Below, one piece after another: positions 15,243 through 38,731 of a DNA stretch of 64,000 bases. Under the pieces are notes generated by a model. That model was given only the letters and a program-made list of their open reading frames with translations. It had not been told where the DNA came from and ran no database searches. Source of the stretch: Holosporales bacterium (GTDB lineage Bacteria > Pseudomonadota > Alphaproteobacteria > JAJTHO01). The position numbers were made by a program, and so were the translations under genes. The first letter of the stretch is position 1; each line of letters starts with the position of its first letter. Location of the stretch: positions 46,764 to 110,763 of the forward strand of contig JBKDWF010000040.1 of assembly GCA_046338525.1 (NCBI GenBank), read 5' to 3'.

Positions 15243-15250
15243 TGGGGTCA

Positions 15251-15834: not shown

Positions 15835-15838
15835 GATT

Positions 15839-22901: not shown

Positions 22902-24083
22902 TCATAAAACAATCCCCAACGCCGCTCCCACTGTAAAAATATCCTTATCCCCCCTACCACACAGGTTCATGACCAGCAAATGATCCTTCGGCAGTGCCGG
23001 CGCGATTTTAAGGACATAGGCCAAAGCGTGGGCGGGTTCTAGTGCGGGGAGGATGCCCTCAGTGCGGGCGAGGTGCTGAAACGCCGCCAGGGCTTCGGCG
23101 TCGGTGGCGCTGGCGTATTCCACCCGGCCGGTGTCGTGGAGGTAGGCGTGTTCCGGGCCGATGCCGGGGTAGTCCAGCCCGGCGGCGATGGAGTGCCCCT
23201 CGACAATCTGGCCGTCGTCGTCTTGGAGCAGGTAGGTTTTATTGCCGTGGAGAACGCCGGGAAGGCCGCCGGCGAGGCTGGCGGCGTGTGCGCCGGTGTG
23301 CAGACCCCTGCCCGCGGCTTCCACGCCAATCATCCGCACGCCGGGATCGTTCAGGAACGGGTGAAACAGGCCCAAGGCGTTGGAGCCGCCGCCGATGCAG
23401 GCAATGAGGGTATCAGGCAGGCGGCCTTCGGCGGCGTGCACCTGCTCCCGCGTTTCCCGGCCAATGATGGTGTGAAAATCCCGCACCATGGTTGGGTACG
23501 GGTGCGGCCCGGCGGCGGTGCCGATGAGGTAGTAGGTATCATCCACCCGCGCCACCCATTCCCGCAGGGCTTCGTTCATGGCGTCTTTCAGGGTCTTGGT
23601 GCCCGTGCTGGCCGGGCGCACGTCGGCCCCGAGGAGTTTCATGCGAAAGACGTTGGGGGCTTGCCGTTCAATATCTTTGGTGCCCATGAAGATGGTGCAT
23701 TCTAGTCCAAACAAGGCGCAGACAGTGGCGGTGGCCACGCCGTGTTGCCCTGCCCCGGTTTCGGCAATAATCCGTTTTTTGCCCATGCGCTTTGCCAGAA
23801 GAATCTGGCCCAGGCAGTTGTTAATCTTGTGGGAACCGGTGTGGTTCAGCTCATCGCGTTTGAAGTAAACTTTTGCCCCGCCCAGTTCGCTGGTAAGCCG
23901 TTTGGCAAAATACAGCGGCGACGGACGACCGACGTAGTGGGTGAGGTAGTGGTTTAGCTCCGCCTGAAACGTGGGGTCTTCCCGCGCCGCTTCATAGGCT
24001 TTTGTAACCTCGATAAGCAACGGCATGAGGGTTTCGGAGACATACTGGCCGCCGTACACGCCAAAGTGGGAAGCAAGCTGCAT
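22902..24083 (-). CDS. trpB: Tryptophan synthase beta chain
   Basis: PLP-lysine motif [15 protein letters not shown] and GGGSNA(L)G: TrpB1 hallmarks (393 aa). Confidence 0.9.
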
Positions 24084-24086
24084 AAT

Positions 24087-26240
24087 TTACCCTACCAGCA
24101 CTGGAAGCGCTTTTTCAAACACCACCGTATAATCGGCAATCGTTCCCAAATCCTTGCCGTTCACCCGCACTTTTCCTGGCGTTACCGTCCCTAGACGGCG
24201 CAGGGGAAGGCCAGCAAAGGCTTCCGGGGTTTCGGTTACGACGAGGTAGCGTCCCTGATCCTCGCCAAACAAAAACGCCGGGGTTTCGGGCACATCGGCA
24301 ATCTCAAAGCCAAGGCCGCTGGCCATGCCCATGTGGGCCAAGCCGACCAGCAAGCCGCCGCCGGACAGATCGTGGCAGGCCTGAACACTGCCAGCGGCAA
24401 TGGCCCGGCGCACGGCTTCACCGTGGTGGGCTTCAAGGGTTAAATCCACCGGGGGCGGGGTTTCAAATTCTATGCCGTCGATAATCTCGCGGTAGCGGGA
24501 ACAACCAAGCCAGCCCGTGCTCTCCCCCAGCAGGTAAATCCCCTGCCCGGCCTGAATAAAGGCATTGCCCACGCGGTTGCGGTAATCGTTGAGCAGGCCG
24601 ACAGCCCCCACCACCGGGGTGGGGAGAATCGGTTGGCCGTTGGTTTCATTGTACAGCGAGACGTTACCCGACACGATGGGGGCGTGCAGGGCGCGGCAGG
24701 CCTCGCCCATTCCCTGCAGCGCGCCGACAAGCTGCCCCATGATGAGGGGTTTTTGCGGGTTGCCGAAGTTGAGGTTGTTGGTAAGGGCTAGGGGTGTTGC
24801 GCCGACAGCGTTTAGATTCCTGCATGCTTCCGCCACGGCTTGACGGCCTCCCATGACGGGATCCGCCTGGCAGTAGCGCGGCGTGCAGTCCGTGGCCATA
24901 GCCAAGGCTTTGTCGGTGCCATACACCCGCACCACGGCGGCATCACCGCCGGAATCGGCGAGGGTCTGGTTGCCGACGCTGCGGTCATACTGTTCCCAAA
25001 TCCAGCGTTTGCTGGCCATGGAGGGGTGCCCCAGCAGTTTTTTCAGGGTATCGGGAAGGGAATGCCTCCAAGTGACTGCGCTATCGTTGCAGTGCGCTGC
25101 CGCCGGGGTGGGCACATAGGGGCGGTCATACTCCGGCATGCCTTCGGCAATGGCGGCTAGGGGGATATGGGCCACTTGGTGGCCGTGGTGATCCAAAATC
25201 AGCACAGGCTCGGCAATCAGTTCCCCAATCACGGCAAAATCCACGCCCCAGCGGCGGAAGATTTCCTGCGCCGCCGCTTCACGGCCTGGTTTGAGCACCA
25301 TGAGCATCCGCTCTTGGCTTTCGGACAGCATCATCTCGTAGGCCGTCATCTGGGTTTCCCGCTGCGGCACTTTGTCGAGATCAAGGCGCACGCCAATGCC
25401 GCCCTTGGCCGCCATTTCAACGGAGGAAGACGTTAGTCCCGCCGCGCCCATGTCCTGAATCGCCACAATAGCGTCCGAGGCCATGAGTTCAAGGCAGGCT
25501 TCCAGCAGTAGCTTTTCCACAAACGGATCGCCCACCTGCACCGTTGGGCGCTTGCTGTCGGCATCGTCGGCAAATTCCGCCGAAGCCATGCTGGCCCCTT
25601 TGATGCCGTCCCGGCCTGTCTTGGCACCCACATACACCACGGGGTTGCCGATTCCGGCGGCGGCGGCGTAGAAAATTTTATCCTGCTTTGCAATGCCCAC
25701 GGTCATGGCGTTGACGAGGATGTTGCCGTTGTAGGCCGGGTGAAATTCACACTCCCCGCCCACGGTGGGAATCCCCATGCAGTTGCCGTAACCGCCAATG
25801 CCAGCGACAACGCCTTGCACTAGGGCTTTGGTCTTTGGGTGATCCGGCGCGCCAAACCGCAGGGCGTTGAGGTTGGCAATGGGGCGTGCCCCCATGGTGA
25901 ACACATCGCGGAGGATGCCGCCCACGCCGGTGGCCGCGCCTTGGTAGGGTTCGATAAATGAGGGGTGGTTGTGGCTCTCAATCTTAAACACCGCCGCCAG
26001 GCCGTCGCCAATATCAATGACCCCTGCGTTCTCCCCCGGGCCTTGGATGACCCACGGCGCGGTGGTGGGAAGTTTTTTGAGGTGAATTTTGGAGGATTTA
26101 TAGCTGCAATGCTCGCTCCACAGCACCGAGAAAATCCCCAATTCCGTCAAGTTGGGCGTTCGTCCCAGCAGGTTTAGGATTAAATGGTACTCATCTTCGG
26201 ACAAACCGTGGTCAAGGGCGATGTTCAGCATAATGCCCAA
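24087..26240 (-). CDS. purL: Phosphoribosylformylglycinamidine synthase subunit PurL
   Basis: 717-aa small PurL with duplicated AIR-synthase-like domains ([20 protein letters not shown]...). Confidence 0.9.
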
Positions 26241-26254
26241 GGTTTTACTTAAAC

Positions 26255-28906
26255 CTAGGCAAACATGCCACGGAAAAAATCATCGGCGGTGCGGGCGTGG
26301 GCGGCGAGGGTCTGTTCGGCGGCCTCGATGCTGGCCTCGTTTAAGATTGCTGCTGTTTGGGCATTGACCCCTTTGGTGAGGCGCAAAAGGTTTTGGAGCT
26401 GTTGATAAAGCTCATAAATAGTGGCCAGCGAAGCGGTGTCGCTTTCAGCGCGCAGGGCCGCGGCGGTACTCTGGTAATGCTTCCCGCCCAGCAGTTGCCG
26501 TGTCTGGGCAATAAACTCCAGCGTCACCATCCCGCCGGGGATATTTTTAACGTCCCAAACGTTTTTGGGCGGATGCGCCGCCGCCCGGCGGTCGTGCATG
26601 GTTTTAGCATCACTTTTAAGCACTTGAGCATCGCGCGGCAGGGCTAACAATGCTGGCATAATACCTTGTAATTTATGACACAATCCCGCATCCCCGGCCA
26701 CGGGGCGGGCGCAGGTCAGGGCCAAAAACTCCCACGTCTGCGCGGAACCCGTGCGGTAATAGGCCTCAAAGGCCTTGAAGGACGATGCCACCGCTCCCGC
26801 TTCCCCGTCGGGGCGCAGGCGGGTGTCCACCTCGTACAGCGGCTGTAAGGCCCTGTCGGCCGGCAGGGTGAGGGCTGAGAGCACCCGCTGGGCAAGGCGA
26901 TTGTAATACACGGGGGCGGCTAGGGGCTTGCCGCCGTCTGAGCTTGCCCCATCGGGCGCATCATAGACAAACACCAGATCGAGATCGGAACCAATGGCCA
27001 AGGCGTTACTCCCCAACTTGCCAAAGCCCAGCACGGCAAAGCCGCTGCCGGGCACATGGCCGTGGACAGCGGCGAAATCGGCCCGGACAATCTCCAACAC
27101 TGCCCGGACGCAGGCTTCGGCCAGTGCCGTGAGCCAAGTGCCAATTGTTGCCGCTTCAGGGGCTTGCTGAAACACCCGAATCATCAAACTAAACAGCCAG
27201 TCGCGTTGCCATAAACCAAGGGCGCGCAGCTTTTCTTCCCGCCCGTCCCGCTGGGCTAGGGTGGCGGTGAGATCGTCGGTGAGGCTTTCCGGCGGCGGCA
27301 GGGCCGCATCGGCCTGTCGCATCAACAGGGTATCCATGAGATGCGGCTGGGCCAGCACGATTTCTGCCAGCGGCGGGGCGCTGGTCATGATGGCCACTAG
27401 GGTGGACAGCACGGCGGGGTTGGATTTTAGGAGAGCAAACAACTGCACCCCGGCGCTGAGGCGGGAGATAAACTGATCAAAGGCCAAGACCCCGGCATCG
27501 GGCGCGTCGCTGGCCGCGCACGCCTCCAGCACCAAGGGGGTAATTTCTAACAATAGTTGCTGCGCCCTAGGGGTCATCAGCACGCGGTAGCCTCGGTTAT
27601 GCCAACGGTGCAGGCATGCCGCCACCACCTTTGGATCGCGAAACCCCATGGAGGTTAGGGTTTGCAGCATCCCGTCCCCCACCTCGGCGGTGAACTGGGT
27701 CAGGTCGGCCTTGGGCTTGGCGTCGGTGTTTTCAAACAGGGCGCTGTAGGCGTCGGCAACATGGCGGCGGTGGGTGTCCAGAACGGTGCGGAAATGGGCG
27801 GTGTCGGGATAGCTAAAACTCTGCGCCACTTGCTCCAAATCCTCAGGAACAATAGGCAAACGGTGGGTTTGCTCATCGTGCAGCAACTGAATCCGGTGTT
27901 CCGTCTTGCGCAGGAAAACATACGCCTCCCAAAGCTGGGAGGCGGTGACGGAAAACAGCCGCCCGGTTTCCACCAACGCATCCAAGGCCTCTAAGGTGCT
28001 GCGCCCGCGCAGGCGTTTGTCGCGCCCTCCCCAGATAAGCTGCTGCGTCTGCACAAAAAACTCAACCTCACGGATGCCGCCAAGGCCGGTTTTGATGTTG
28101 AGGCCCGGGGCGGCGGGGGTGAAGGATCGCTGGGGGTTAATCTGGGTTTTGATGGCGTGGATTTCATCAAGGGCGGCAAAATCGAGGCTGCGCCGCCAAA
28201 CAAACGGCTGTATCAGGCGGGTAAACTCGGCCCCGGCCACGGGGTCGCCGGCGATGACCCGAGCCTTGATCATCGCCGCCCGTTCCCAGGTTGCGGCAAT
28301 CGAACTGTAATACGTCTCCGCTGCGGCCAGCGAGACAGCCAGCGGCGTGGACGACGGATCCGGGCGCAATCGCAGGTCGGTGCGGAAAACATACCCGTCG
28401 GCGGTATGCGCTGAGAGAATTTCTGTCATGCGGCGCACTAGGCGCACGGCCATGGCCTGAGCCTCACCCTTGGTGAGATGGGCACGAAGGCGGGCATCGT
28501 CATAAAAAACGATGAGGTCAATATCGCTGGAAAAATTCAGCTCCTCCGCCCCCAGTTTGCCCATGCCAACGACGACAAGCCCCGCGTGGGGGGCATAGGG
28601 TGGGGGCAAGGCAAACTGAAGCCGTCCGGCCTGCTGGGCCTCATTGAGGCTTGCCTCTAGGGCTTTTTCCACAGCGATGCAGGCAAAACGACTCAGAGCC
28701 GCCGTCTGTTCCAGCAGCGGCAGAGTATCGGTAAATTCCGCGTGCGCGAGATAAAGAAGCAACCGCTGACGATGCTGGCGCAGAGCCAGCATCGTTGCGG
28801 CGGCATCGTCGGTGGGGATAGTGGCGGCTTCGGCTTCTAGGCGAGCCAGTATTTGCTCGCCTAGGGTTGGTGGAGAGGGTGTTACCTCAGGCCATCGGGC
28901 TTCCAA
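26255..28906 (-). CDS. glnE: Bifunctional glutamine synthetase adenylyltransferase/adenylyl-removing enzyme
   Basis: Two nucleotidyltransferase domains: [21 protein letters not shown] and [21 protein letters not shown]. Confidence 0.85.
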
Positions 28907-28963
28907 AGGGGGGAGGAAGGTGCCGAAGGCTACAAGAGAAAATTTTATAATACTAAACTTTGT

Positions 28964-29134
28964 TTATTGGTTTATTGCAGAACCAATTCTAGAGAAACTC
29001 TCGCTTACGTCCGCTCTTAGCAAGCTAAGCACAGCAATAAGGGCAACAGCGATTAAGGACGCCAGCAAGGCATATTCTATTATGGTCACCCCAGAGGTAT
29101 CCCGACGCAGCCGGGTAAAAAGTTTTTTAATCAT
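28964..29134 (-). CDS. flp: Flp/Fap family type IVb pilin precursor (56 aa)
   Basis: Translated by hand from the minus strand. The ORF is under 60 aa and so is absent from the ORF track: MIKKLFTRLRRDTSGVTIIEYALLASLIAVALIAVLSLLRADVSESFSRIGSAINQ. A GGAGA RBS lies 8 nt upstream. The canonical Flp prepilin motif G/VTxIEYxL is followed by a hydrophobic helix. Confidence 0.7.
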   Translation of the reverse strand: MIKKLFTRLRRDTSGVTIIEYALLASLIAVALIAVLSLLRADVSESFSRIGSAINQ

Positions 29135-29299
29135 AACGATGTCTCCTTTATAGAATGCTCGGTAGCGTCCCTGTGTGTTATCGTCAATACAAGATAACGC
29201 CGACCCAGATTTCGATTACAAAGGCACTATACAGCAGCATTCGTTAAAAAAGAGTTAATTTTTGACACGCTCTCTTTTTTTAGTTTTATACTCAACATT

Positions 29300-30229
29300 A
29301 TGCCTCAAAGTCTGACCGTTATCGTTCCTGTGTACAACGAAGCCCGCGCCTTAGCTCTGTTTTGGCAGCGGGTTTCTCCTATTCTGGAGGCCAGCCATTT
29401 AATGTGGTCGGTGCTGTTTGTTGATGATGGCAGTCGTGACGATACCTTTGCTTATATTCAGCAATTAGCCAAAGAGCATCCCGATCATGTTCGCGGCATA
29501 CGGCTTGCCCGGAATTTTGGTAAGGAACGGGCCTTGGCCGCCGGTCTTGATCGCACTGCGGCGGATATTACGATTATTATGGACGTGGATTTGCAAGACC
29601 CGCCGGAACTGATTCCCGAGATGCTGGAGGCGTGGCGCAAGGGTGCCGCCGTTGTCATGACCGCCCGGCGGGGCCGGGGGGAAGATTCTTGGCCAAAAAA
29701 AATTACGGCCCGTTTTTTTTATAAAATCTACAATGTGATTGCCCGGGTGCCCATTGAGGAAAACGCGAGTGATTTTTGTTTGTTGACAAAACCTGCGGTA
29801 GAAGCCCTGCGCCAATTGCGGGAGCGGTGCCGTTTTACCAAAGGCTTGCTGGCGTGGATTGGGTTCACGCCAGTGCATTTATATTATGATCGCCCAGCGC
29901 GGAGTGACGGCACTTCGTCGCGTTGGCGACCCTTAGGATTATGGCGGTTTGCCTTGGACGGGCTAACGAGTTTCAGCACCCGGCCCCTGCACGCTTGGAC
30001 GTATATTGGGCTGATTATCGCTAGCGTCTCGTTTCTTTTTGGGGCTAGCATTCTGGTGCGGACGTTGTTGTTCGGTGCGGATTTGCCGGGCTACGCATCC
30101 TTGATGGTAGTGATAACCTTTTTGGGCGGGGTGCAACTGGTAAGCCTTGGTGTGATCGGCGAATACTTGGGGCGAATCTACGCCGAGGTTAAGGGGCGGC
30201 CGTTGTATCTGGTGCGGGAGGAGTGCTGA
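29300..30229 (+). CDS. GT2-family polyprenyl-phosphate glycosyltransferase (ArnC/GtrB/Dpm1-like)
   Basis: VIVPVYNE...VDDGSRDDT...DVDLQDPP (DXD) are GT-A GT2 motifs. Two C-terminal TM helices are typical of bactoprenol-phosphate sugar transferases. Confidence 0.8.
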   Translation: MPQSLTVIVPVYNEARALALFWQRVSPILEASHLMWSVLFVDDGSRDDTFAYIQQLAKEHPDHVRGIRLARNFGKERALAAGLDRTAADITIIMDVDLQDPPELIPEMLEAWRKGAAVVMTARRGRGEDSWPKKITARFFYKIYNVIARVPIEENASDFCLLTKPAVEALRQLRERCRFTKGLLAWIGFTPVHLYYDRPARSDGTSSRWRPLGLWRFALDGLTSFSTRPLHAWTYIGLIIASVSFLFGASILVRTLLFGADLPGYASLMVVITFLGGVQLVSLGVIGEYLGRIYAEVKGRPLYLVREEC

Positions 30230-31823
30230 GGGGCAGCAACACACAGCCGTTCATGAAAACCTCATAGCTAGGCACTTTTAGGAGCGGCAGGAAACATCCA
30301 CGCAGTGTTTCCATGCCCGACTGGTTCAGAAAATACGCTATGAAATCTTCAGGCATTTTTACGGCACCTGCCTTATGTAATTTGTATTTATGGCGGTCAA
30401 CGACAACCAATCCGGCGGCACGAAGATCGTTTTTAGTGAAGGCATCCAGAAGGCTGACTTCTCTAGGATAGGTTGTAAGATTGCTCGCTGGTTGAAAATA
30501 CCAGAGTGCGCCAACGGTATTTTTGTTTTTCCACGGCACGGTGTTAGGTGTGGGAAACGGAGTGAACGGGGTTGTTGTCAGGCTAATATACGAAACAGAG
30601 GACGGAATATCGGCTAGGCGGGTACGAATCTCATGCTCTGATGTCCACATAAGAACATCGCTTTTTTTTGCTGTCACATTGTTAAAAGCCATTGGAAAAA
30701 AAAGCACTAAAGCCATAGCCAGCAACCCGACCAGCCGGTGGCTTGCTAAACAATACGCCCAGCCGACAATGAGCGAGGAAAGAATAAAAACCCCCGTATA
30801 ATGGTACGTGAAACCACGCATCTGAGCCAGCGCGAGGAGAAAAAAGCCGCCCGCGAGAATCAGGCTCCAGAATAAAAATTTATTTTGAATGTCTGGTAAG
30901 GTATAGCGTTTACGTATAAGCAGAATGCTCAAGGGAATGCCGGGAAGACTCATACTAACATTGCGCAAAATCGTGAAATCAAATCCATCATAACGTGCAT
31001 AAATCATCGTGAGAATAGGCAGCAGCGTTTCCATAAAGTACCGCTCTTGCGTCCAGACAACGCCGCAAAAAAGCAGTCCCATGCTAACGGAGGCAATGCT
31101 TTCAACACTCAACACCCACGACCAGAAACACCGCCGAACAAGCGTGCCAACGGCCACTATGATAAAAAGAATGCCCGCTTGAGGCTTGAGGCACACCGCT
31201 ATTCCGGCCAGAATACCAATAAGAAGGCGAATGCCTTTGTGCAGAATAATCTTCTCGGTGCGCAGGAAAGTCGCCAGTCCAAACGGCAACCACCATGCAA
31301 ACAACAGGTGATCCCGCTGGCCAAAAATCATGCCGGGCAGCAAAAATAAACCGTAGGCCAGCAACACGGCCATCATCCGCCATTGCCAGCCTTGTAAACC
31401 CGGTATCCGGCGCAGTGCCGCGACACAAAGCGCCCAGCCTGCGAGCAAGGCCCCCGCAAAAAATGCACGAAAACACCAGAGAATTGACCAGCCTGTCTGT
31501 TGTGCCACCCAAGCGGGCAAAAGGTTCAGGTAAATCATCATGGGCGGGTTGGTTTCCACGCCCGCGGTGGGATAAATGGGATAGGCACCATCAACGACCC
31601 GTTGTGCCAATAATAGCAACCAAGCGTTGTCAGTATTAAAAGGCACCAAGGCCTGATTGATTTGGGACAGTAAGATAATGCCAGCCGTTATCCAGCCCCA
31701 ATAGGGCGCGGCTGCGATAAACCAGCGGGGCGGCGTTGAGGGTGCTGCCGTTAAAAAGTTTAATATCTTGTTGAGTAATTTAAAGATAGCCAAGGTGTGA
31801 TTCTTAATTTTGTGATGGGTCAT
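30189..31823 (-). CDS. GT-C fold membrane glycosyltransferase (ArnT/PMT-like, GT39/GT83 family)
   Basis: 544 aa with about 11-13 TMs, a first periplasmic loop carrying acidic residues (NTDNAW...RVVDG), and a C-terminal periplasmic domain. Convergent with the GT2 gene, with a 41-nt 3' overlap. Confidence 0.65.
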   Translation of the reverse strand: MTHHKIKNHTLAIFKLLNKILNFLTAAPSTPPRWFIAAAPYWGWITAGIILLSQINQALVPFNTDNAWLLLLAQRVVDGAYPIYPTAGVETNPPMMIYLNLLPAWVAQQTGWSILWCFRAFFAGALLAGWALCVAALRRIPGLQGWQWRMMAVLLAYGLFLLPGMIFGQRDHLLFAWWLPFGLATFLRTEKIILHKGIRLLIGILAGIAVCLKPQAGILFIIVAVGTLVRRCFWSWVLSVESIASVSMGLLFCGVVWTQERYFMETLLPILTMIYARYDGFDFTILRNVSMSLPGIPLSILLIRKRYTLPDIQNKFLFWSLILAGGFFLLALAQMRGFTYHYTGVFILSSLIVGWAYCLASHRLVGLLAMALVLFFPMAFNNVTAKKSDVLMWTSEHEIRTRLADIPSSVSYISLTTTPFTPFPTPNTVPWKNKNTVGALWYFQPASNLTTYPREVSLLDAFTKNDLRAAGLVVVDRHKYKLHKAGAVKMPEDFIAYFLNQSGMETLRGCFLPLLKVPSYEVFMNGCVLLPLSTPPAPDTTAAP

Positions 31824-31934
31824 AATTGGAAAATATTTTCTTTAGGATCAATTAAAAAACTGTTTCTTGCCGAAGGATTGGACGTTCAGAATAATGCCTT
31901 GTCAAAATACGCCCAAAAGCCTACACCCAGCTTT

Positions 31935-32552
31935 ATGAGCGACTATTCTCTTAATATCACGGACGTAGCCGTGGCGGCCCTCATTTCTATCTCTGTGTTG
32001 GTGGGCGTTATTCGGGGCTTTGTTAAAGAGGTGCTGAGCATTGCCTCATGGGTGTTGGCCATTGTTGCCGCTGGTTTAGCGTACAAACCAAGCCTTCCCT
32101 TTTGGGAGGGGGCTGTTGGGGACGGCGTGCTGGCGCATATTGCGGCGTTCAGCAGCGTTTTTGTCGGCGTCCTTGCCACCGCTCTTATCATCACTGCCCG
32201 CATTAGCCGTAAGGTGGACAGCGGCCCTCTGGGCGGCATGGATCGCACCTTTGGTGCCGGTTTTGGTGCCGCGCGAGGGGTAGCTATTGTTTGTCTGGCG
32301 TTTTTATTATTTTTGGGAATTCGACCTGGCGATAAATCCCATGAAAATCTTCCAGGTTGGCTCAGTAATGCAGAAACCCTGCCTTACATTAAAAAAATCA
32401 CCGTTGCTGTTATCGATAAGCTGCCAAAAAGCGCAAAAAAACAACTGCCTAAAATTGAAGAAGCACCTGAAAAAATAAAAACCCCTGAAGAGCCACCCGT
32501 GGTGAAAAAGCTGCAAGAGACAAAACGCAGCGTGAATGTTATAATATTATGA
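31935..32552 (+). CDS. cvpA: Colicin V production protein CvpA family membrane protein
   Basis: Four TMs, with ITDVAVAALISISVLVGVIRGFVKEVLSIASW typical of CvpA. It lies immediately upstream of purF, the conserved cvpA-purF arrangement. The start was chosen at the Met at 31935. The ORF track extends to 31797. Confidence 0.75.
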   Translation: MSDYSLNITDVAVAALISISVLVGVIRGFVKEVLSIASWVLAIVAAGLAYKPSLPFWEGAVGDGVLAHIAAFSSVFVGVLATALIITARISRKVDSGPLGGMDRTFGAGFGAARGVAIVCLAFLLFLGIRPGDKSHENLPGWLSNAETLPYIKKITVAVIDKLPKSAKKQLPKIEEAPEKIKTPEEPPVVKKLQETKRSVNVIIL

Positions 32553-33955
32553 TGCCGTTGCACGACGATGATAAGATGCATGAAGAATGCGGGGTTTTTG
32601 GGATTATTGGCAGTGATGCCGCCGCCTCCCATGTGGCGTTAGGCCTGCACGCCCTCCAGCACCGGGGCCAGGAAGCCGCCGGGATAGTCAGTACCGACGG
32701 ACAGCAATTCTACGCTGAACGTGCCTTGGGATTAGTGGGCGATACCTTTGCCGATAGCGCAGTTATCCGGCGTCTGATAGGCCAAGCAGCTATTGGCCAT
32801 GTGCGCTACGCCACCACGGGGGCGACGATCCTCCGCAACGTGCAGCCGTTGTTTGCAGAGCTGACTTTCGGCGGGTTTGCCCTAGCCCATAACGGCAATC
32901 TTACCAATGCGTTGACGCTTAGAAAGCAACTCATTGCTCAGGGAAGTATTTTTCAGGCCACCACCGACACCGAAGTCATCATTCATCTCATGGCCCATAG
33001 CAAGGCCAGCGATGTTGCCGAACGCCTCATTGATGCCCTCAAGCAGGTCACGGGGGCGTATTCTCTTGTATGTCTTACGGAAAATACCATTCTTGGGGTG
33101 CGCGATCCGGCGGGGGTTCGGCCTTTGGTGTTGGGGCGGCTGCACGGGGCACCGATTCTGGCCTCGGAGACGTGCGCGTTGGAAATCATTGGCGCAACCC
33201 TTGAGCGTGACGTTGCGCCGGGGGAGATGGTTATTCTTCATGCCGATGGCCGGGTGGAGAGCCGCCTGCCCTTTGCGCCGCATCCGTCGCGGTTTTGTAT
33301 TTTTGAGTATGTGTATTTTGCCCGCCCGGACAGTGAACTTGATAAAAAGAGCGTGTACGCGGTGCGGCGGCGCATTGGCGCGGAATTGGCTTTTGAAGCT
33401 CCGACTGAGGCTGATGTGATTATCCCTGTCCCGGATTCGGGCGTTCCGGCCGCTATTGGTTATGCCCAGGCGGCGGCGATCCCGTTTGAGCTTGGCATTA
33501 TTCGTAATCATTATGTGGGCCGCACCTTTATTCAGCCCACGGATCATATTCGCCATTTGGGGGTGCGCCTCAAGCATAGCCCTAACCGGGCGGAACTTCA
33601 GGGCAAGCGTGTGGTGCTGGTGGATGACAGCATCGTGCGCGGCACCACTTCGGTGAAGATTGTTGAAATGGTGCGCGCCGCCGGGGCACGGGAAGTCCAC
33701 ATGCGTATTGCCAGCCCCCCCACCATGAACCCTTGTTTTTATGGCATAGATACTCCGTCTAAAGACAAGCTTCTGGCCAGCCGGATGAGCGTGGAGGAAA
33801 TGCGGCAGTTTATTGGGGCCGATAGCCTAGCGTTCCTATCGCTGGATGGCCTGTACCGAGCCGTGGGTGAGGCAAAACGTAATAATGAGATGCCCCAATA
33901 CTGCGATGCCTGTTTTTCGGGGGAGTACCCCTTGCCGCTGATAGACAATCAATGA
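32549..33955 (+). CDS. purF: Amidophosphoribosyltransferase
   Basis: N-terminal Ntn Cys (..ECGVFGIIG) and PRTase motif VVLVDDSIVRGTTS. 468 aa. Confidence 0.9.
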   Translation: MMPLHDDDKMHEECGVFGIIGSDAAASHVALGLHALQHRGQEAAGIVSTDGQQFYAERALGLVGDTFADSAVIRRLIGQAAIGHVRYATTGATILRNVQPLFAELTFGGFALAHNGNLTNALTLRKQLIAQGSIFQATTDTEVIIHLMAHSKASDVAERLIDALKQVTGAYSLVCLTENTILGVRDPAGVRPLVLGRLHGAPILASETCALEIIGATLERDVAPGEMVILHADGRVESRLPFAPHPSRFCIFEYVYFARPDSELDKKSVYAVRRRIGAELAFEAPTEADVIIPVPDSGVPAAIGYAQAAAIPFELGIIRNHYVGRTFIQPTDHIRHLGVRLKHSPNRAELQGKRVVLVDDSIVRGTTSVKIVEMVRAAGAREVHMRIASPPTMNPCFYGIDTPSKDKLLASRMSVEEMRQFIGADSLAFLSLDGLYRAVGEAKRNNEMPQYCDACFSGEYPLPLIDNQ

Positions 33956-33999
33956 GTTAAGTGCAATTTACCTTGCAAATTCGGAGTTGATCTCCTAAT

Positions 34000-35190
34000 A
34001 TGCACGGCATGCTGCAACGATGGATTGCCCCAACAGTCGAAAAAACCCTTAAGAAAGTCCCTGCGGTGGCCTTGCTGGGGCCGCGTCAAATTGGCAAGAC
34101 AACCTTGGCAAAACGCATCTCGGAAACCCGTCCCGCGCTTTATCTTGATCTTGAATCCCCTAGAGATATTATCCGACTCGATGATCCCAGTGCGTTTTTG
34201 GCGCAGCACGCGGATAAGCTTGTTATTTTGGATGAAATTCAGCGCAAGCCCGATCTTTTTATGGTGCTGCGCGGTATTATTGATGAAAATCGCCGCGTCG
34301 GGAAAAAGGGCGAGCAATTCCTTTTGCTTGGGTCCGCTTCTATGGAGTTGCTGCGGCAATCCTCGGAAAGTCTTGCGGGGCGCATTCATTATATTGAGAT
34401 GAGCGGGCTGAATGCCCTTGAAATAAAATATACTGCGCCCTCTGATGTGCAGCGGCTGTGGCTGCGCGGCGGCTTTCCGGACAGTTATCTTGCCGATTCT
34501 GACGCGGACAGCATGGAATGGCTGGAAATGTTTGTTCGCACCTACCTGGAGCGCGATGTGCCGCAGATGGGTTTCCGTATTCCTGCAACCCGTCTTCGCC
34601 GATTGTGGACGATGGTTGCACATTGCCAAGGCGAAACACTTAACCTTTCTAAACTTGGCGGCAATCTTGAGGTTGATGGAAAGACGGTGCGTCATTACAT
34701 TGATGTTCTGGTTGATTTGATGCTGGTGCGGCGGCTTGAGCCTTGGCACACGAACGTCAAAAAGCGTCTGGTAAAATCGCCCCGTTTTTATGTGCGGGAC
34801 AGCGGTATCCTCCACCGATTGCTTGATATTGCCGATTACAATGGCCTGCTGTCCCATCCTGTTCTGGGCAAAAGTTGGGAGGGGTTTGTGGTTGAGAATA
34901 TTCATTCCGTTCTCCCTAATACTGTGGAGAGCTATTATTATCGAACTGCAGCAGGGGTTGAAATTGATCTGTTGCTCAAGTTTTCCCACAAGGACATTTG
35001 GGCCATTGAAATCAAAAACGGCACCATGCCTAAAGTGACTTCAGGCTTCCACCAAGCCTGTGAGGATATAGGCGTAACACAGAAAATTATCGTTCATGGC
35101 GGGGAGGATGACTTTCCGCTTGCTCATGCAACAAAGGCGTTGTCGTTGCTGTCTTTTATGAAACACCTCACCCAGCAGCTTGGTCAGTAA
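34000..35190 (+). CDS. AAA+ ATPase with DUF4143 (COG1373 family)
   Basis: Walker A LLGPRQIGKTTLAKR and Walker B LVILDEIQ. The C-terminal DUF4143-like region has the conserved spacing of this family. Confidence 0.7.
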   Translation: MHGMLQRWIAPTVEKTLKKVPAVALLGPRQIGKTTLAKRISETRPALYLDLESPRDIIRLDDPSAFLAQHADKLVILDEIQRKPDLFMVLRGIIDENRRVGKKGEQFLLLGSASMELLRQSSESLAGRIHYIEMSGLNALEIKYTAPSDVQRLWLRGGFPDSYLADSDADSMEWLEMFVRTYLERDVPQMGFRIPATRLRRLWTMVAHCQGETLNLSKLGGNLEVDGKTVRHYIDVLVDLMLVRRLEPWHTNVKKRLVKSPRFYVRDSGILHRLLDIADYNGLLSHPVLGKSWEGFVVENIHSVLPNTVESYYYRTAAGVEIDLLLKFSHKDIWAIEIKNGTMPKVTSGFHQACEDIGVTQKIIVHGGEDDFPLAHATKALSLLSFMKHLTQQLGQ

Positions 35191-36773
35191 GCCGCCGCAT
35201 ACGTCACCGGAAAACGCCGCTCCCGCCCCAAAGCGCGGCGGCTAACTTTTGGCCCAGGGGGACTTTGTCGGCGTTTGTGTTCGCTAGCGTGCAGCAGTGC
35301 CGCCGTTTTTCGTACCAACGCTTCGGGATAGCCCGCAGCAAGCAAGTGTTCCGGGCTTTCTTCCCGTTCTACTAGAGCCTTAAGCACGTTATCTAACACC
35401 GGGTACGGCGGTAGGGTATCCTCATCGCGTTGATCGTCCCGCAGCTCGGCACTGGGGGCGCGGCAAAGGAGTCGTTCCGGGAACACAGGCGATTGTTCAT
35501 TGCGCCACCGGGCTAGGGCATAGACATCGGTTTTGTACACATCTTTCAGCGGCGCATAACCGCCGCACATATCTCCGTACAGTGTGGTGTACCCCGTCGA
35601 AAACTCAGATTTATTTCCGGTGGCTAACAGCAAGCGGCCTTCCTGGTTGCTGATCCCCATTAACAAGGTGCCCCGCACCCGGGCTTGGATGTTTTCCGCC
35701 GCTGTACCCGTTAGGCCAGGCAATGCCGTATGGCTGGCGGCAAGCACCCCATCAATGGGCACTACCTTATGCGCCGTGCCAAGATTATTAGCGACCAAGG
35801 CCGCGTCCTCAAAGCTTGCCGTGCTGGTAAACTGTGTCGGCAGCATCACCGTTGCCACGTTCCCTGCGCCCAACGCATCGGCGGCCAAGGCGGCCACCAA
35901 CGCGGAATCCATGCCGCCGGAAAGGCCGAGGACAGCCTTTGAGAAACCATTATTCCTAGCGTGTTCCTGTAACCCGAACACTAGGGCTTGATAAACGCTG
36001 GCCCAATGTGTCAGCGGGGCAGAAAAAACAGTTAATGCTTTTAAGGTATTACTGATCCATGAGAAAGACGCGGTTGCTTCGGTAAACAAGGGTAGTTCAC
36101 TAAGAACCCTTCCCTGCCCGTCCATGGCAAACCCGCCGCCATCAAACACCACGTCATCCTGACCCGCCAGAAGATTAGCATAGAGCAACGGAAGGCCTGC
36201 GGTGCGGGCAACGCTCAGGCGTTCTTGGTGCTTGCCAATATCCCACGGGGAGGCGTTTAGGGTGATGAGCAGTTCCGCCCCCTGCCCGCGCAGGTGGGCG
36301 GCGGGCTCTGGGTGCCAGAGGTCCTCACAGATAATGATTCCAAGCCTTATTCCGCGCCAAGAGAGTACATCGGGCAAGCCGCCCGGGGTGAAGTAGCGTT
36401 TTTCATCAAAAACCCCGGTGTTGGGCAGAATATGCTTGCGGGCAACAACTTGTACCGTAGAGCCTTCAATGAGAAGAGCGACATTATAAAGTCGCCCATC
36501 TGCCTCACGCCAGGGGCATCCAAAGAGTAGTGCAGGATCGCCGGGCTTAGTCTGTGCCGCAATACCCTGCACTGCTGTGTGACACGCCTCAATAAACGAA
36601 GGGCGCAGCCATAGGTCATCCGCCGGATATCCAGAGATAAAACACTCGGGAAAAATAAGCATATCGGTTCTACCCGCTAGGGCACGCCGTTTTTCAAGAA
36701 CTAGGCTACTATTATTGACGATCGCTCCTACCACAGAAGGGAGTTGGCAGAGCGCAAAAGAGACGGACACCAT
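35184..36773 (-). CDS. nadE: Glutamine-dependent NAD+ synthetase
   Basis: N-terminal CN-hydrolase domain (catalytic Cys in IICEDLWHP). C-terminal PP-loop SGGMDSALVAAL. Confidence 0.85.
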   Translation of the reverse strand: MVSVSFALCQLPSVVGAIVNNSSLVLEKRRALAGRTDMLIFPECFISGYPADDLWLRPSFIEACHTAVQGIAAQTKPGDPALLFGCPWREADGRLYNVALLIEGSTVQVVARKHILPNTGVFDEKRYFTPGGLPDVLSWRGIRLGIIICEDLWHPEPAAHLRGQGAELLITLNASPWDIGKHQERLSVARTAGLPLLYANLLAGQDDVVFDGGGFAMDGQGRVLSELPLFTEATASFSWISNTLKALTVFSAPLTHWASVYQALVFGLQEHARNNGFSKAVLGLSGGMDSALVAALAADALGAGNVATVMLPTQFTSTASFEDAALVANNLGTAHKVVPIDGVLAASHTALPGLTGTAAENIQARVRGTLLMGISNQEGRLLLATGNKSEFSTGYTTLYGDMCGGYAPLKDVYKTDVYALARWRNEQSPVFPERLLCRAPSAELRDDQRDEDTLPPYPVLDNVLKALVEREESPEHLLAAGYPEALVRKTAALLHASEHKRRQSPPGPKVSRRALGRERRFPVTYAAAY

Positions 36774-36784
36774 GTACCGTCCCC

Positions 36785-37288
36785 CTACCCTAACACCACG
36801 GTTCCGCGATATACAGCTGCAACGCCGGTTCGGCTAAGTTCCGCAAGGCCAAGTGGAACAAGACTATTAACAAACGCCGTAATTTTTTCGGGTATGTCTG
36901 TTAGCTCAAATACAAAGGAATCTTTTGTTGTGTCAATGATATGGGCGTGAAAATCTTCTGCTATACGCTGGCTTTTTTGTAGTTGTTCGTCAGTGCCTAG
37001 AACTTTAACAAGTACTAATTCCTTAGCAATCAACGGTGCCGTTATCGTCAGATCATGGCAAACATGAACCGGTATAAGGCGAGAAAGTTGAGCTTTAATT
37101 TGTTCTAGTACGGCATGGGTGCCGCTGGTAACAATAGTAATCCGGGAGAGTGTGGCGGCTTTATCAACGGTGGCAACGCTAAGACTCTCAATGTTATAGC
37201 CACGGCCGGAAAAAAGTCCAATGACTCGGGCTAAAACGCCCGGTTCATTATCCACCAGAGCAGCAAGGGTACGTGTTTCAACAGACAT
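36785..37288 (-). CDS. ilvH: Acetolactate synthase small (regulatory) subunit
   Basis: ACT domain N-terminus LAALVDNEPGVLARVIGLFSGRGYNIESLSV. 167 aa. Confidence 0.85.
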   Translation of the reverse strand: MSVETRTLAALVDNEPGVLARVIGLFSGRGYNIESLSVATVDKAATLSRITIVTSGTHAVLEQIKAQLSRLIPVHVCHDLTITAPLIAKELVLVKVLGTDEQLQKSQRIAEDFHAHIIDTTKDSFVFELTDIPEKITAFVNSLVPLGLAELSRTGVAAVYRGTVVLG

Positions 37289-37293
37289 TCTTT

Positions 37294-38106
37294 TTAATAA
37301 AGCAAGCGCATCCGTAAGGCAAGCAAGGGATAACAGCGCATCAGACGTTCGTATAAGGCACGCCTTTTTGAAATTGGCAGCAATCCCATGCTACCGTCAT
37401 GAAAAATATAACTCTTTGCTTTTTCGGCCAAGATGGGGAAATACTGGGCTGCAGCTAGGGCGCGACGGTGGGCGGCTTTGGTATTGGCCGGCAAGCTATA
37501 ACAAGACGTTATGACACCGTGCCAGATAAACCCCCCCTTAGTGAGTAGGCGCAACCAAAAATCCCAATCTTCAAAATGATTTAAACCGACATCGAGTCCA
37601 CCCACAGCAAGGCCAGTCAGGCGGCGAAACACCACCGCCTGAATCGGCATTTGGTTTCGTTGACGCAGCAGGTGTGAGCTTGCAGGCAATGGCGGCGCAG
37701 CGCGGCGGCAAAGTACCTTATCTCCTTGTACATATTCAATATCAGCTCTGGCTACTGCTGCTACTGCCTGTGGATTTTTTTCTATTAAAAAAACAAGGAC
37801 TTGCAGATGGTTTGGGTACAGCTTGTCGTCGTCGTCAAGAAAACAGCAGTAGTCGCCTATTGCCTGCTGCAAGGCGAAGTTACCGGCATTACAACGGCCT
37901 TTGCCCGGATTGCGATAAAGCCGCACTCGAGTGTGTACGGTATCGGGAAAACCTTTGATAATCGTTGCCGCATCACTCGGGCCGTCTTCGACAACAACAA
38001 TTTCCCAAGCATCAACGGTTTGTGCAACAACAGAATCTATAGCCTGACGCAATAAATGTTCACGCCCAGCAACCGTGCGGATAAGGATAGTCGTTTTAGG
38101 CAGCAA
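37294..38106 (-). CDS. GT2-family glycosyltransferase (start uncertain, probably TTG overlapping the GST stop)
   Basis: IRTVAGREHLLRQAIDSVVAQT...VVVEDGPSD...DDDD are GT-A motifs. The ORF track extends to 38172 and would then overlap the upstream GST gene by 77 nt. An in-frame TTG near 38106 removes the overlap. Confidence 0.55.
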   Translation of the reverse strand: MLPKTTILIRTVAGREHLLRQAIDSVVAQTVDAWEIVVVEDGPSDAATIIKGFPDTVHTRVRLYRNPGKGRCNAGNFALQQAIGDYCCFLDDDDKLYPNHLQVLVFLIEKNPQAVAAVARADIEYVQGDKVLCRRAAPPLPASSHLLRQRNQMPIQAVVFRRLTGLAVGGLDVGLNHFEDWDFWLRLLTKGGFIWHGVITSCYSLPANTKAAHRRALAAAQYFPILAEKAKSYIFHDGSMGLLPISKRRALYERLMRCYPLLALRMRLLY

Positions 38107-38731
38107 CAGCCGTATACTCAACGTGTTCGGCAAGTAAGGCTTTTTGGTATGCAGGACGAGTAATAACAGCACGAATTAATCGTTCGACGTTGTTGCCGAG
38201 GGGAATGGGGCGGGGGAAATAGCCATTCCAATTGGCAATAACAGCTAGTAAAATATCCGGGGCTGTAAGAACATCGCCAGCAACGTATTTTTTGCCCGCT
38301 AGGTGGGCATCTAGGTCAGCCCATTTCGTTTCAATGTCTTGAAGAGCAGCTTCAAGCAGCTTCTCTTGAACGACTCCGCTTTCACTGTTGCGCATTAGCC
38401 AAAACACCCGGCTGTAAGCAGGGTGAAGACTCGCGTTAGCCCAGCATAACCATTCCAAGGCTTGAGCTTTTTCAAAACCATGATGCGGGAATAATGCGCT
38501 GTCATGTTTGTCGCAAAGGTACAAAATGATGGCCGCGCCTTCTCGCAGGATCAAGTTGCCGTCAACAAGTACAGGCACTTGACCACGGGGATTAATGGCA
38601 AGAAATTCAGGAGCTTTATTTTTCCCCTCGCGGATGCTGACGTTTTTAAGTTCGACTGCGGCATCAAGCTCGTTAAGTATAACATGAATGCTCATGGAAC
38701 ATGAGCCGGGCGAATAATATAACTGGTACAT
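38096..38731 (-). CDS. Glutathione S-transferase
   Basis: Thioredoxin-like N-domain with MYQLYYSPGSCS...INPRGQVPVL, and a helical C-domain. Confidence 0.8.
   Translation of the reverse strand: MYQLYYSPGSCSMSIHVILNELDAAVELKNVSIREGKNKAPEFLAINPRGQVPVLVDGNLILREGAAIILYLCDKHDSALFPHHGFEKAQALEWLCWANASLHPAYSRVFWLMRNSESGVVQEKLLEAALQDIETKWADLDAHLAGKKYVAGDVLTAPDILLAVIANWNGYFPRPIPLGNNVERLIRAVITRPAYQKALLAEHVEYTAVAA

What the first reader, a model, noticed from the sequence alone, without database searches (positions are those of the whole stretch)
28964..31823. Flp pilin next to a polyprenyl-P glycosyltransferase and a GT-C glycosyltransferase: candidate periplasmic glycosylation module
The ArnC/GtrB/Dpm1-like GT2 gene (29300-30229) is divergently transcribed from flp. 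It overlaps convergently by 41 nt with an ArnT/PMT-like GT-C gene (30189-31823). GT2 plus GT-C is the classic pair that builds a lipid-linked monosaccharide and transfers it in the periplasm to lipid A, O-antigen or protein Ser/Thr. Proximity to a pilin with a Ser-rich C-terminus (SESFSRIGS) raises the untested possibility of pilin O-glycosylation. Lipid A or LPS modification is the alternative. No arnA/B/D or gtrA genes accompany them.
Basis: inference. Interest (0 to 1): 0.5.

Follow-up and report, generated by a model that had tools for sequence, protein, structure and literature searches.

The report
Sugar-transfer gene pair beside Flp pilin
An uncultured Holosporales bacterium carries a lipid-linked-sugar synthase and a membrane sugar transferase from an undescribed family next to a small pilin gene; the pair almost certainly glycosylates something outside the cytoplasm, but whether the target is the pilin or the cell envelope is still open.

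Summary
All three genes are real and sit at the stated coordinates. The host is a Holosporales MAG.

- **flp** is a canonical Flp prepilin.
- **The GT2** is a full-length polyprenyl-phosphate glycosyltransferase. It is far closer to GtrB (298 bits) than to ArnC (136 bits).
- **Its family** is large and undescribed, with 2,121 clusters. Members usually lie in GT2-methyltransferase-GtrA-GT-C modules.

The periplasmic glycosylation module is therefore well supported. The acceptor is unresolved.

- **For the pilin:** flp lies next to the GT-C in three Holosporales lineages and 8.5 kb away in a fourth. Flp and the GT-C are the two fastest-evolving proteins in the block.
- **Against the pilin:** 78 of 80 family loci elsewhere have no pilin nearby. 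No tad genes occur within 84 kb. The organism makes LPS.

My estimate is about 0.45 for an envelope glycan or LPS acceptor and about 0.35 for Flp.

The parts
28964..29134 (-). flp: Flp/Fap-family prepilin, 56 aa. The leader is MIKKLFTRLRRDTSG. The predicted mature pilin is 41 aa and starts VTIIEYALL.
   Evidence: ORF. Pfam PF04964 E 4.6e-12, 46 bits against a cut-off of 32.2. RBS AAAGGAG 7 nt upstream. NCBI names the identical protein 'Flp family type IVb pilin [Holosporales bacterium]' MFN9322926.1.
29135..29299 (.). 165-bp divergent intergenic region between flp and GT2. It presumably holds both promoters.
   Evidence: Long conserved blocks are shared with the relative L001, although Flp itself is only 56% identical. 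There is no Rfam match and no consensus sigma-70 hit.
29300..30229 (+). GtrB-type polyprenyl-phosphate glycosyltransferase (GT2, GT-A domain, DVD motif at residues 95-97, two C-terminal TM helices). Inferred Und-P-hexose synthase.
   Evidence: PF00535 3.3e-27. NCBIfam PgfS 9.5e-74 and ArnC 8.7e-45, both below the equivalog cut-offs. PDB: GtrB sll0501 5ekp 8.7e-88 over residues 5-306, ArnC 1.3e-38. 30% identity to E. coli ArnC. 92.6% identical in L001.
30189..31823 (-). 544-aa GT-C-fold membrane glycosyltransferase of an undescribed sequence family. It has about 12 TM helices and a first periplasmic loop carrying N63-x-D65-x-A-W and E90-x-N-P-P. Further motifs are F167-G-Q-R-D-H, K213-P214 and Q334..Y340-H341. 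The periplasmic C-terminal alpha/beta domain spans about residues 385-530.
30189..30229 (.). 41-nt convergent overlap of the 3' ends of GT2 and GT-C.
   Evidence: Coordinates. The same overlap occurs in L001 and L002. The GT-C tail LPLSTPPAPDT is invariant between the 71%-identical orthologs, as expected for dual coding.

Best explanation
GT2 and the 544-aa protein form a Gtr/Arn-style periplasmic glycosylation pair.

Step 1 is inferred from homology. On the cytoplasmic face, the GtrB-type GT2 transfers a single hexose from a nucleotide sugar to undecaprenyl phosphate. By similarity to GtrB the hexose is most plausibly glucose.

Step 2 is inferred. The lipid-linked sugar is flipped by an unidentified protein, because this genome segment encodes no GtrA.

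Step 3 is inferred from the fold and conserved motifs. The GT-C enzyme uses the conserved Asp65 in its first periplasmic loop to transfer the sugar to an acceptor on the periplasmic side.

The module itself has my confidence of about 0.8. For the acceptor, my marginally preferred reading (0.45, the figure scored here) is a non-pilin envelope molecule. That would be LPS (lipid A, core or O-chain) or another envelope glycan. This is what nearly all known Gram-negative GtrB/ArnC + GT-C pairs modify. On this reading the flp adjacency is lineage-restricted synteny.
For: The module is well supported. The GT2 aligns over its full length with GtrB. The GT-C fold is confident. The catalytic-loop Asp is conserved in at least 90% of 92 family members. 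EL1 and the FGQRDH loop are 91-94% conserved between orthologs that are 71% identical overall.

Across 80 genome loci of the family, three partners recur.
- A GT2 lies within 6 kb in 45 loci.
- A Methyltransf_23 methyltransferase occurs in about 33-40 loci.
- GtrA occurs in 14 loci, sometimes fused to the GT-C.
The window GT2 scores higher against these partner GT2s (up to 312 bits) than against any named family.

Several points favour a non-pilin acceptor.
- 78 of 80 family loci have no flp or tad gene within 10 kb.
- The recurring partners include no acceptor gene, as expected for a lipid or glycan acceptor.
- No tad or cpa genes occur in the window or 10 kb beyond each end.
- LptE is present just beyond the window, so the organism makes LPS.
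- A conserved GT2 (92.6%) with a divergent GT-C (71.5%) is the classic GtrB/GtrC serotype-conversion pattern (plus established knowledge of Shigella gtr loci).
- A second nearby GT2 (37294-38172) is also fast-evolving at 76%.
- flp is not in an operon with the GT-C here. It lies directly upstream of glnE on the same strand.
Against: The flp linkage within the Holosporales subfamily is stronger than chance synteny easily explains (see rival 1). No LPS or O-antigen genes (waaL, wzx/wzy, lpx) flank the pair in the window. The donor sugar and the flippase are unidentified. No family member has been characterised, so the acceptor class rests on priors from other GT-C families.
Confidence: 0.45

Rival explanations
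1. The pair is a dedicated Flp pilin O-glycosylation system. The GT2 makes Und-P-hexose. The GT-C transfers it to Ser/Thr in the exposed C-terminal third of membrane-inserted Flp before or during pilus assembly. This would be analogous to TfpW acting on P. aeruginosa group IV PilA.
For: The GT-C subfamily (window/P0001, P0002, P0003/P0180, P0004) is Holosporales where the source is named, and its branches are only about 29% identical to each other.
- In the window and P0002 lineages, flp is 1 kb from the GT-C, with the GT2 in between.
- In L007 (GC 0.40) flp starts 44 bp after the GT-C on the same strand, with no GT2 between.
- In L094 two flp genes lie 8.5 kb away, although no other neighbour is shared with the window.

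flp is the only flp-like ORF in 84 kb. Between two close relatives (housekeeping proteins 90-98% identical), Flp (56%, dN 0.385) and the GT-C (71.5%, dN 0.200) are the two most divergent proteins.

Elsewhere in the family there are three further cases.
- A complete tad locus ends 1.5 kb from the GT2-MTase-GtrA::GT-C module in Ensifer adhaerens.
- A flp-like gene lies about 660 bp after the GT-C in a Gemmatimonadetes MAG.
- A GtrA::GT-C fusion lies in a type IVa pilin gene string.

There are two precedents. TfpW is a GT-C encoded next to pilA (bioRxiv 10.1101/2020.04.19.049825). A. actinomycetemcomitans Flp1 is reported to be glycosylated, and I know of no enzyme assigned to this (PMC6182317, citing Inoue 2000).
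Against: 78 of 80 wider-family loci have no pilin nearby. About one pilin-adjacent locus is expected by chance in 1.28 Mb, so 2-3 observed is weak evidence. The Holosporales cases may be one ancestral adjacency inherited several times, so they are not independent. The finding was selected because of the adjacency. flp is divergent from GT2 and is followed by glnE, and it is not co-oriented in an operon with the GT-C in the window. No Tad machinery lies within 84 kb. The Caulobacter Tad pilus shows no glycan density (PMC10710030). The C-terminal periplasmic domain is shared with family members that have no pilin link.
Confidence: 0.35
2. The pair glycosylates some other periplasmic acceptor. 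Candidates are a set of envelope proteins (general O-glycosylation, as with PMT in Actinobacteria or Pgf in streptococci), peptidoglycan, or periplasmic glucans.
Against: The PgfS score (248 bits) is far below its 500-bit cut-off, and the match reflects the generic GtrB-like family. There is no MIR or TPR acceptor-binding domain. No positive evidence points to any particular acceptor.
Confidence: 0.13
3. GT2 and the 544-aa protein are neighbours but do not work together, or the 544-aa protein is not a glycosyltransferase (for example a transporter or a structural membrane protein).
For: No sequence-level match to any characterised enzyme. The two genes are convergent, not co-transcribed. In L007 and L094 no GtrB-type GT2 is adjacent.
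Confidence: 0.07

Closest known systems
GtrA/GtrB/GtrC O-antigen glucosylation (Shigella/Salmonella phage gtr loci)
   Same: The GtrB-type Und-P-hexose synthase is the closest characterised relative of the window GT2 (Synechocystis GtrB 5ekp, 298 bits). The final step is a GT-C enzyme. The synthase is conserved and the GT-C divergent between close relatives. GtrA is a frequent partner, or is fused, elsewhere in the family.
   Different: No GtrA in the window. No prophage context. The GT-C has no sequence similarity to any annotated family. A SAM methyltransferase is a common extra partner in the wider family, though not here. The acceptor is unknown.
ArnC/ArnT lipid A aminoarabinose modification (GT83)
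   Different: The GT2 is only 30% identical to ArnC. The GT-C fails the PMT/PMT_2 Pfam models, and hhalign against E. coli ArnT gives 0.4% probability. There are no arnA/B/D/E/F genes.
TfpW, the P. aeruginosa group IV pilin D-arabinofuranosyltransferase
   Same: It is a GT-C membrane enzyme encoded next to the pilin gene it modifies. It acts in the periplasm from a polyprenyl-phosphate sugar donor (bioRxiv 10.1101/2020.04.19.049825).
   Different: TfpW is 646 aa, with a C-terminal TPR domain, a DDX motif and a type IVa pilin substrate, and it depends on a D-Araf biosynthesis cluster. The window protein has an alpha/beta C-terminal domain and an N-x-D motif, sits beside a Flp (type IVc) pilin, and is paired with a hexose-type GT2. 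Homology to TfpW was not tested because no sequence was available.
GT136 three-component pentofuranose addition (Citrobacter youngae ORF12)
   Same: This is a recent example of a GT-C enzyme with no similarity to existing families. It was recognised by AlphaFold fold and gene context, and it uses a Und-P-monosaccharide donor (PMC11127046).
   Different: Its donor synthase is a PRPP-dependent phosphoribosyltransferase and its flippase is MATE-family. Its GT-C carries a beta-rich CBM, and its acceptor (O antigen) is proven.

Membership tests
Flp/Fap pilin (PF04964, type IVc/Tad pilin) | Match to the family profile above the curated cut-off | tested here: met
   46 bits against a cut-off of 32.2, E 4.6e-12.
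Flp/Fap pilin (PF04964, type IVc/Tad pilin) | Prepilin peptidase site G/XXXXEY followed by a hydrophobic helix | tested here: met
   ...RRDTSG|VTIIEYALLASLIAVALIAV read directly.
Flp/Fap pilin (PF04964, type IVc/Tad pilin) | Tad/Cpa assembly genes (prepilin peptidase, secretin, ATPase) present | tested here: not met
   None in the 64-kb window or 10 kb beyond each end. The rest of the genome could not be examined.
GtrB/ArnC/DPMS-type polyprenyl-phosphate glycosyltransferases (GT2) | GT-A catalytic domain with a DXD motif | tested here: met
   PF00535 3.3e-27. D95-V-D97 within DVDLQDPPE aligns with DADLQNPPE of E. coli ArnC.
GtrB/ArnC/DPMS-type polyprenyl-phosphate glycosyltransferases (GT2) | Full-length architecture including the two C-terminal TM helices | tested here: met
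   Residues 5-306 align with residues 28-327 of GtrB 5ekp, E 8.7e-88. Hydrophobic segments at about 232-256 and 267-291.
GtrB/ArnC/DPMS-type polyprenyl-phosphate glycosyltransferases (GT2) | Und-P-sugar synthase activity and donor identity | not testable with these tools
   Needs a membrane assay with radiolabelled UDP-sugars.
ArnC equivalog (NF007986) | Score above the NCBIfam equivalog cut-off | tested here: not met
   153 bits against a cut-off of 529.
GT-C fold glycosyltransferase superfamily | Multi-TM core with the GT-C arrangement | tested here: met
GT-C fold glycosyltransferase superfamily | Conserved acidic residue in the first periplasmic loop just after TM1 | tested here: met
   D65 in N-x-D-x-A-W, directly after the helix at 39-59, is conserved in at least 90% of 92 members.
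GT-C fold glycosyltransferase superfamily | Use of a lipid-phosphate-linked sugar donor | tested here: inconclusive
   Supported only by context: a GT2 in 45 of 80 loci, GtrA in 14 of 80 plus fusions. No biochemistry.
ArnT (GT83) / PMT (GT39) families | Match to PF02366 (PMT) or PF13231 (PMT_2) profiles | tested here: not met
   No hit at E<=10 for the window protein. Only 1 of 92 family members weakly hits PMT_2 and 3 hit PMT_4TMC.
ArnT (GT83) / PMT (GT39) families | Detectable profile similarity to a bona fide ArnT | tested here: not met
   hhalign of the family profile against E. coli ArnT: probability 0.4%, E 0.16.
ArnT (GT83) / PMT (GT39) families | arn operon partners (arnA/B/D/E/F) or MIR domain | tested here: not met
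   Absent from the window and from the protein.
Gtr three-component O-antigen modification | GtrA flippase-like gene accompanying GtrB and the GT-C | tested here: not met
   A GtrA HMM built from family loci finds nothing in the window. GtrA is present in other family loci.
TfpW-type pilin glycosyltransferase | GT-C enzyme encoded next to the pilin gene | tested here: met
   flp lies 1 kb from the GT-C in the window and L001/L002, and 44 bp away in L007.
TfpW-type pilin glycosylation | C-terminal TPR domain and DDX motif | tested here: not met
   The C-terminal domain is mixed alpha/beta with 4-5 strands. There is no TPR Pfam hit. The motif is T-D-N, not DD.
TfpW-type pilin glycosylation | Pilin is actually glycosylated by the enzyme | not testable with these tools
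   Requires mass spectrometry of Flp.

The most novel reading that the evidence does not exclude
The 544-aa protein founds a new GT-C family, and its Holosporales branch (perhaps also members such as the Ensifer adhaerens one) is the long-missing Flp/Tad pilin O-glycosyltransferase. It would decorate the pilin with a Und-P-linked hexose made by the neighbouring GtrB-type GT2, and enzyme and pilin would co-diversify under host or phage pressure.
Probability: 0.3. Interest if true: 0.75.

Novelty: new variant of a known kind. Interest (0 to 1): 0.5.

Why it matters
Periplasmic glycosylation by a polyprenyl-phosphate sugar synthase plus a GT-C enzyme is a known design. The GT-C here, however, belongs to a large family with no Pfam, NCBIfam or PDB representative. 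The family has 2,121 clusters at 50% identity and is common in Alphaproteobacteria, Acidobacteriota, Planctomycetota and Gemmatimonadota. As far as I could find, it has no literature.

Defining the family adds a missing piece to bacterial envelope glycobiology. So does defining its usual GT2-methyltransferase-GtrA partners. Culturable hosts such as Ensifer adhaerens, Devosia, Sphingobium and Singulisphaera could be used to find the acceptor.

If the acceptor in Holosporales is Flp, this would be the first enzyme assigned to Tad-pilin glycosylation. It would also be a surface-variation mechanism in obligate intracellular symbionts. If the acceptor is LPS, this is an ordinary serotype-type modification carried out by a new GT-C family.

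Tried and rejected
1. **Sequence classification of the GT-C failed.** I tried Pfam at E=10, NCBIfam, PDB phmmer and a PDB profile search. ArnT/PMT membership is therefore rejected.
2. **The first AF2 run was unusable.** It used a 3-sequence alignment and gave pLDDT 35. It was replaced by the 92-sequence run.
3. **The word-indexed homolog search was unproductive all three times.** It returned 2-4 hits. Only the exhaustive representatives search found the family.
4. **Collection scans with the close-clade alignment gave little.**
   - The genome-contig scan found nothing.
   - Alignments A2 and A3 were too diverse to scan with.
   - The metagenome scan added only three distant loci without flp.
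5. **tblastn of the GT-C against plasmids found no match.** The roughly 510-aa hypothetical proteins beside similar GT2s on Qingshengfaniella and Sphingobium plasmids are not family members.
6. **A strict Flp regex missed divergent Flps.** It was replaced by an HMM with --max, which added L054 and L088.
7. **Naive ORF clustering in high-GC loci produced antisense artefact clusters.** Only the clusters confirmed by Pfam were used.
8. **The afdb50 fold library was unavailable.**
9. **No RNA or regulatory signals were found.**
   - There is no Rfam element in the region.
   - The promoter and terminator scan was no better than shuffles.
10. **P0003 lacks the catalytic Asp (NTAVAW).** I considered it a possible pseudoenzyme lineage. 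I rejected this because its full-length cluster-mate P0180 has NTDVAW.
11. **A literature search for the motif FGQREH returned nothing.**
Full report
**Observation.**
- flp: 28964-29134 (-), 56 aa.
- GT2: 29300-30229 (+), 309 aa.
- A membrane protein: 30189-31823 (-), 544 aa.

The last two overlap convergently by 41 nt. All are real genes. flp passes the Pfam Flp_Fap cut-off (E 4.6e-12). It has the G|VTIIEY processing site and a strong ribosome-binding site. The GT2 hits PF00535. The 544-aa protein has conserved orthologs.

Exact-sequence look-ups identify the source as an uncultured Holosporales bacterium. The matching NCBI proteins are MFN9322926.1 (Flp), MFN9322927.1 (GT2) and MFN9322930.1 (PurF), on a 127-kb contig. 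The flanking genes are housekeeping:
- trpB, purL and glnE on one side;
- cvpA, purF, an AAA_14/DUF4143 ATPase, nadE and ilvN on the other.

The rest of the window holds a VirB8-VirD4 type IV secretion cluster, fliR, cydAB and similar genes. It holds no tad/cpa, arn, gtrA or obvious O-antigen genes.

**The GT2.** It aligns end to end with the solved structure of Synechocystis sll0501 (5ekp; E 8.7e-88, 298 bits), including the two C-terminal membrane helices. From my own knowledge, 5ekp is the GtrB polyisoprenyl-phosphate glucosyltransferase. It aligns much less well with ArnC structures (about 136 bits) or archaeal DPMS (68 bits). Identity to E. coli ArnC is 30%, with the DXD region conserved. 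The best NCBIfam models are PgfS and ArnC, both far below their equivalog cut-offs. It is therefore a GtrB-type polyprenyl-phosphate hexosyltransferase, not an ArnC ortholog. The sugar is not determined.

**The 'GT-C'.** By sequence the label could not be confirmed.
- There was no Pfam or NCBIfam hit even at E=10.
- There was no PDB sequence hit with the protein or with a 92-member profile.
- hhalign of the family profile against E. coli ArnT gave 0.4% probability.

An exhaustive HMMER search of 1.84 billion representatives found 2,121 relatives at E<=1e-3 and 466 at E<=1e-10. Only 0-3 of the 92 relatives examined touch any GT-C Pfam model, and weakly.

With these relatives as the alignment, AlphaFold gave a confident model (pLDDT 86, pTM 0.87). 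A first attempt with three sequences had failed. The model has about 12 transmembrane helices and a C-terminal alpha/beta periplasmic domain.

| Search | Result |
|---|---|
| Foldseek vs PDB | Top 23 hits all GT-C; ArnT 5f15 first (E 1.4e-4, TM 0.50) |

No single GT-C family is clearly closest. The family motifs sit where GT-C catalytic residues are expected. N63-x-D65-x-A-W lies immediately after TM1. E90-x-N-P-P is in the same loop. The others are F167-G-Q-R-[DE]-H, K213-P214 and Q334-x-[KR]-G-[FW]-x-Y-H. The first loop and the FGQRDH loop are 91-94% identical between orthologs that are 71% identical overall. The enzyme is therefore under purifying selection at its presumed active site.

The protein is a GT-C-fold glycosyltransferase from an undescribed family. 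It is not a member of GT83/ArnT or GT39/PMT.

**Family context.** A degenerate-pattern scan of species-representative genomes returned 255 relatives. Eighty loci were kept. Most are Alphaproteobacteria (Rhizomicrobium, Devosia, Ensifer, roseobacters, sphingomonads, Acetobacteraceae). Others are Acidobacteriota, Planctomycetota, Gemmatimonadota and some Gammaproteobacteria.

| Recurring partner | Loci (of 80) |
|---|---|
| GT2 within 6 kb | 45 |
| Methyltransf_23 SAM methyltransferase | about 33-40 |
| GtrA | 14, sometimes fused to the GT-C |
| LPG_synthase_TM flippase-like protein | 9 |

The best partner GT2s score 280-312 bits against the window GT2, which is as much as or more than it scores against any named family or solved structure. 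A typical operon is GT2-methyltransferase-GtrA-GT-C, for example L039 and L076. This is Gtr-like three-component logic and strongly supports a lipid-linked monosaccharide donor. The window version is minimal, with no GtrA and no methyltransferase.

**The flp link.** The window protein belongs to a small, deep-branching subfamily: window/P0001, P0002, P0003/P0180 and P0004. The branches are about 29% identical to each other, against no more than 25% to everything else. All members whose source is named are Holosporales.

| Lineage | Arrangement |
|---|---|
| P0002 | glnE-flp-GT2-GT-C-cvpA-purF, identical to the window |
| L007 (P0004, GC 0.40) | flp begins 44 bp after the GT-C on the same strand, no GT2 between |
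| L094 (P0180) | GT-C flanked by two methyltransferases and recG; two flp genes 8.5 kb away; no other neighbour shared with the window |

Between the window and its close relative L001, housekeeping proteins are 90-98% identical and the GT2 is 92.6% identical. Flp is 56% and the GT-C 71.5% identical. These are the two most divergent proteins of twelve, with the highest dN (0.385 and 0.200).

A sensitive Flp HMM was run over the 80 wider-family loci (1.28 Mb). It found only two cases. One is a flp-like gene about 660 bp downstream of the GT-C in a Gemmatimonadetes MAG. The other is a complete tad locus (TadE/G, CpaC, CpaB, Flp, CpaA) ending 1.5 kb from the GT2-MTase-GtrA::GT-C module in Ensifer adhaerens M78. 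One further member, a GtrA::GT-C fusion, lies in a string with a type IVa pilin gene and a sulfatase-family gene. About one such case would be expected by chance, so the wider-family signal is weak.

No tad genes and no second flp occur in the window or 10 kb beyond either end. LptE is present there, so the organism makes LPS.

**Interpretation.** The module is well supported, and I put it at about 0.8. A GtrB-type enzyme loads a hexose on undecaprenyl phosphate. An unknown flippase exposes it. The GT-C transfers it in the periplasm.

The acceptor is not resolved. Several points favour a non-pilin envelope acceptor.
- Prior knowledge: Arn, Gtr, Flm and Rgt systems all modify LPS.
- 78 of 80 family loci lack pilin genes.
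- No acceptor gene is conserved in the module.
- 'Conserved GtrB, divergent GT-C' is the classic serotype-conversion signature.
- A second fast-evolving GT2 lies nearby.
- No Tad machinery is found locally.
- flp sits in front of glnE rather than in an operon with the GT-C.

Other points favour Flp.
- GT-C-flp proximity persists through Holosporales lineages that share no other neighbours.
- Flp and the GT-C diverge fast together.
- Three independent pilin-adjacent cases occur elsewhere in the family.
- There are two precedents: TfpW, a GT-C encoded beside the pilin it modifies (bioRxiv 10.1101/2020.04.19.049825), and glycosylated Flp1 in A. actinomycetemcomitans, for which I know of no assigned enzyme (PMC6182317).

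Two cautions apply. The Holosporales cases may reflect a single ancestral adjacency. The finding was also selected for that adjacency in the first place. The Caulobacter Tad pilus shows no glycan (PMC10710030).

I assign about 0.45 to an LPS or envelope glycan acceptor and 0.35 to Flp. Another acceptor gets 0.13, and 0.07 goes to the two genes not forming a functional pair.

**Comparison and novelty.** Functionally this is a Gtr/Arn-type system. By membership, the GT2 belongs to the GtrB/ArnC PI-GT family, and the GT-C belongs only to the GT-C superfamily. This parallels the recent founding of GT136 from a fold-only assignment (PMC11127046). I rate it a new variant of a known kind: an uncharacterised, widespread GT-C family, here in a stripped-down two-gene form with a lineage-specific pilin association. 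Interest is moderate (0.5). It would be high if Flp proves to be the acceptor.

Noticed in passing
window 22902-38172 versus L001 1-16575: Synonymous divergence is mosaic between two close Holosporales relatives. dS is 0.42-0.57 for trpB, purL, glnE, purF and the AAA_14 gene, and 0.72 for GT2. It is 0.96-1.53 for flp, GT-C, cvpA, nadE, ilvN and the second GT2. This suggests recombinational replacement of surface-related segments.
   Followed up: partly
L088 127-11473 (Ensifer adhaerens M78, NZ_MAUG01000003.1): A complete tad/cpa pilus locus (TadE, TadG, CpaC, CpaB, Flp, CpaA) ends about 1.5 kb from a GT2-methyltransferase-GtrA::GT-C module of the same GT-C family. A transposase-like ORF and a glyoxalase-like ORF lie between them. 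This is a culturable host for testing the acceptor.
   Followed up: partly
L004 771-5704 (also L005, L006): A family member fused to an N-terminal GtrA domain (P0152, 641 aa) lies on the same strand as a type IVa pilin gene, a hypothetical gene and a sulfatase-family gene that may be a phosphoform transferase. The layout resembles pilin-accessory gene strings.
   Followed up: no
window 29135-29299: The flp-GT2 divergent intergenic region keeps long identical blocks with L001 (for example AAAAATTAAC.CTTTTTTAACGAA, TATTGACGATA and GCTACCGAG), although Flp itself is only 56% identical. These are probably shared regulatory sites. There is no Rfam match.
   Followed up: partly
window 12000-20000: This is a low-GC stretch (0.38-0.43 against 0.50-0.61 elsewhere). 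It holds a 681-aa protein with a weak eukaryotic-type protein kinase match (15839-17884) and a Ysc84/Las17-binding-like protein (18677-19396). These may be eukaryote-like effectors of an intracellular symbiont, and they lie near a VirB/VirD4 type IV secretion cluster (777-9461).
   Followed up: no
window 37294-38172: A second GT2 glycosyltransferase next to ilvN is also unusually divergent between close relatives (76% against 85-98% for its neighbours). This hints at a variable surface glycan in this lineage.
   Followed up: no
L094 2250-4761: In the P0180 Holosporales lineage the GT-C is preceded divergently by two SAM methyltransferases and a 343-aa GT-A-like protein with no Pfam hit, instead of a GtrB-type GT2. 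The methyltransferase partnership seen across the wider family therefore persists there.
   Followed up: partly
window 31797-31935: The mechanical cvpA ORF (GTG at 31797) overlaps the GT-C start. Orthologs are 205 aa, which implies a true start near 31935 and a divergent intergenic region of about 110 bp. The GT-C N-terminus (residues 1-15) is also absent from the P0002 ortholog, so its start may lie downstream.
   Followed up: partly
window 3136-4560: A 474-aa ORF with no Pfam match sits between the VirB9/CagX-like and VirB10/TrbI-like genes of the type IV secretion cluster.
   Followed up: no
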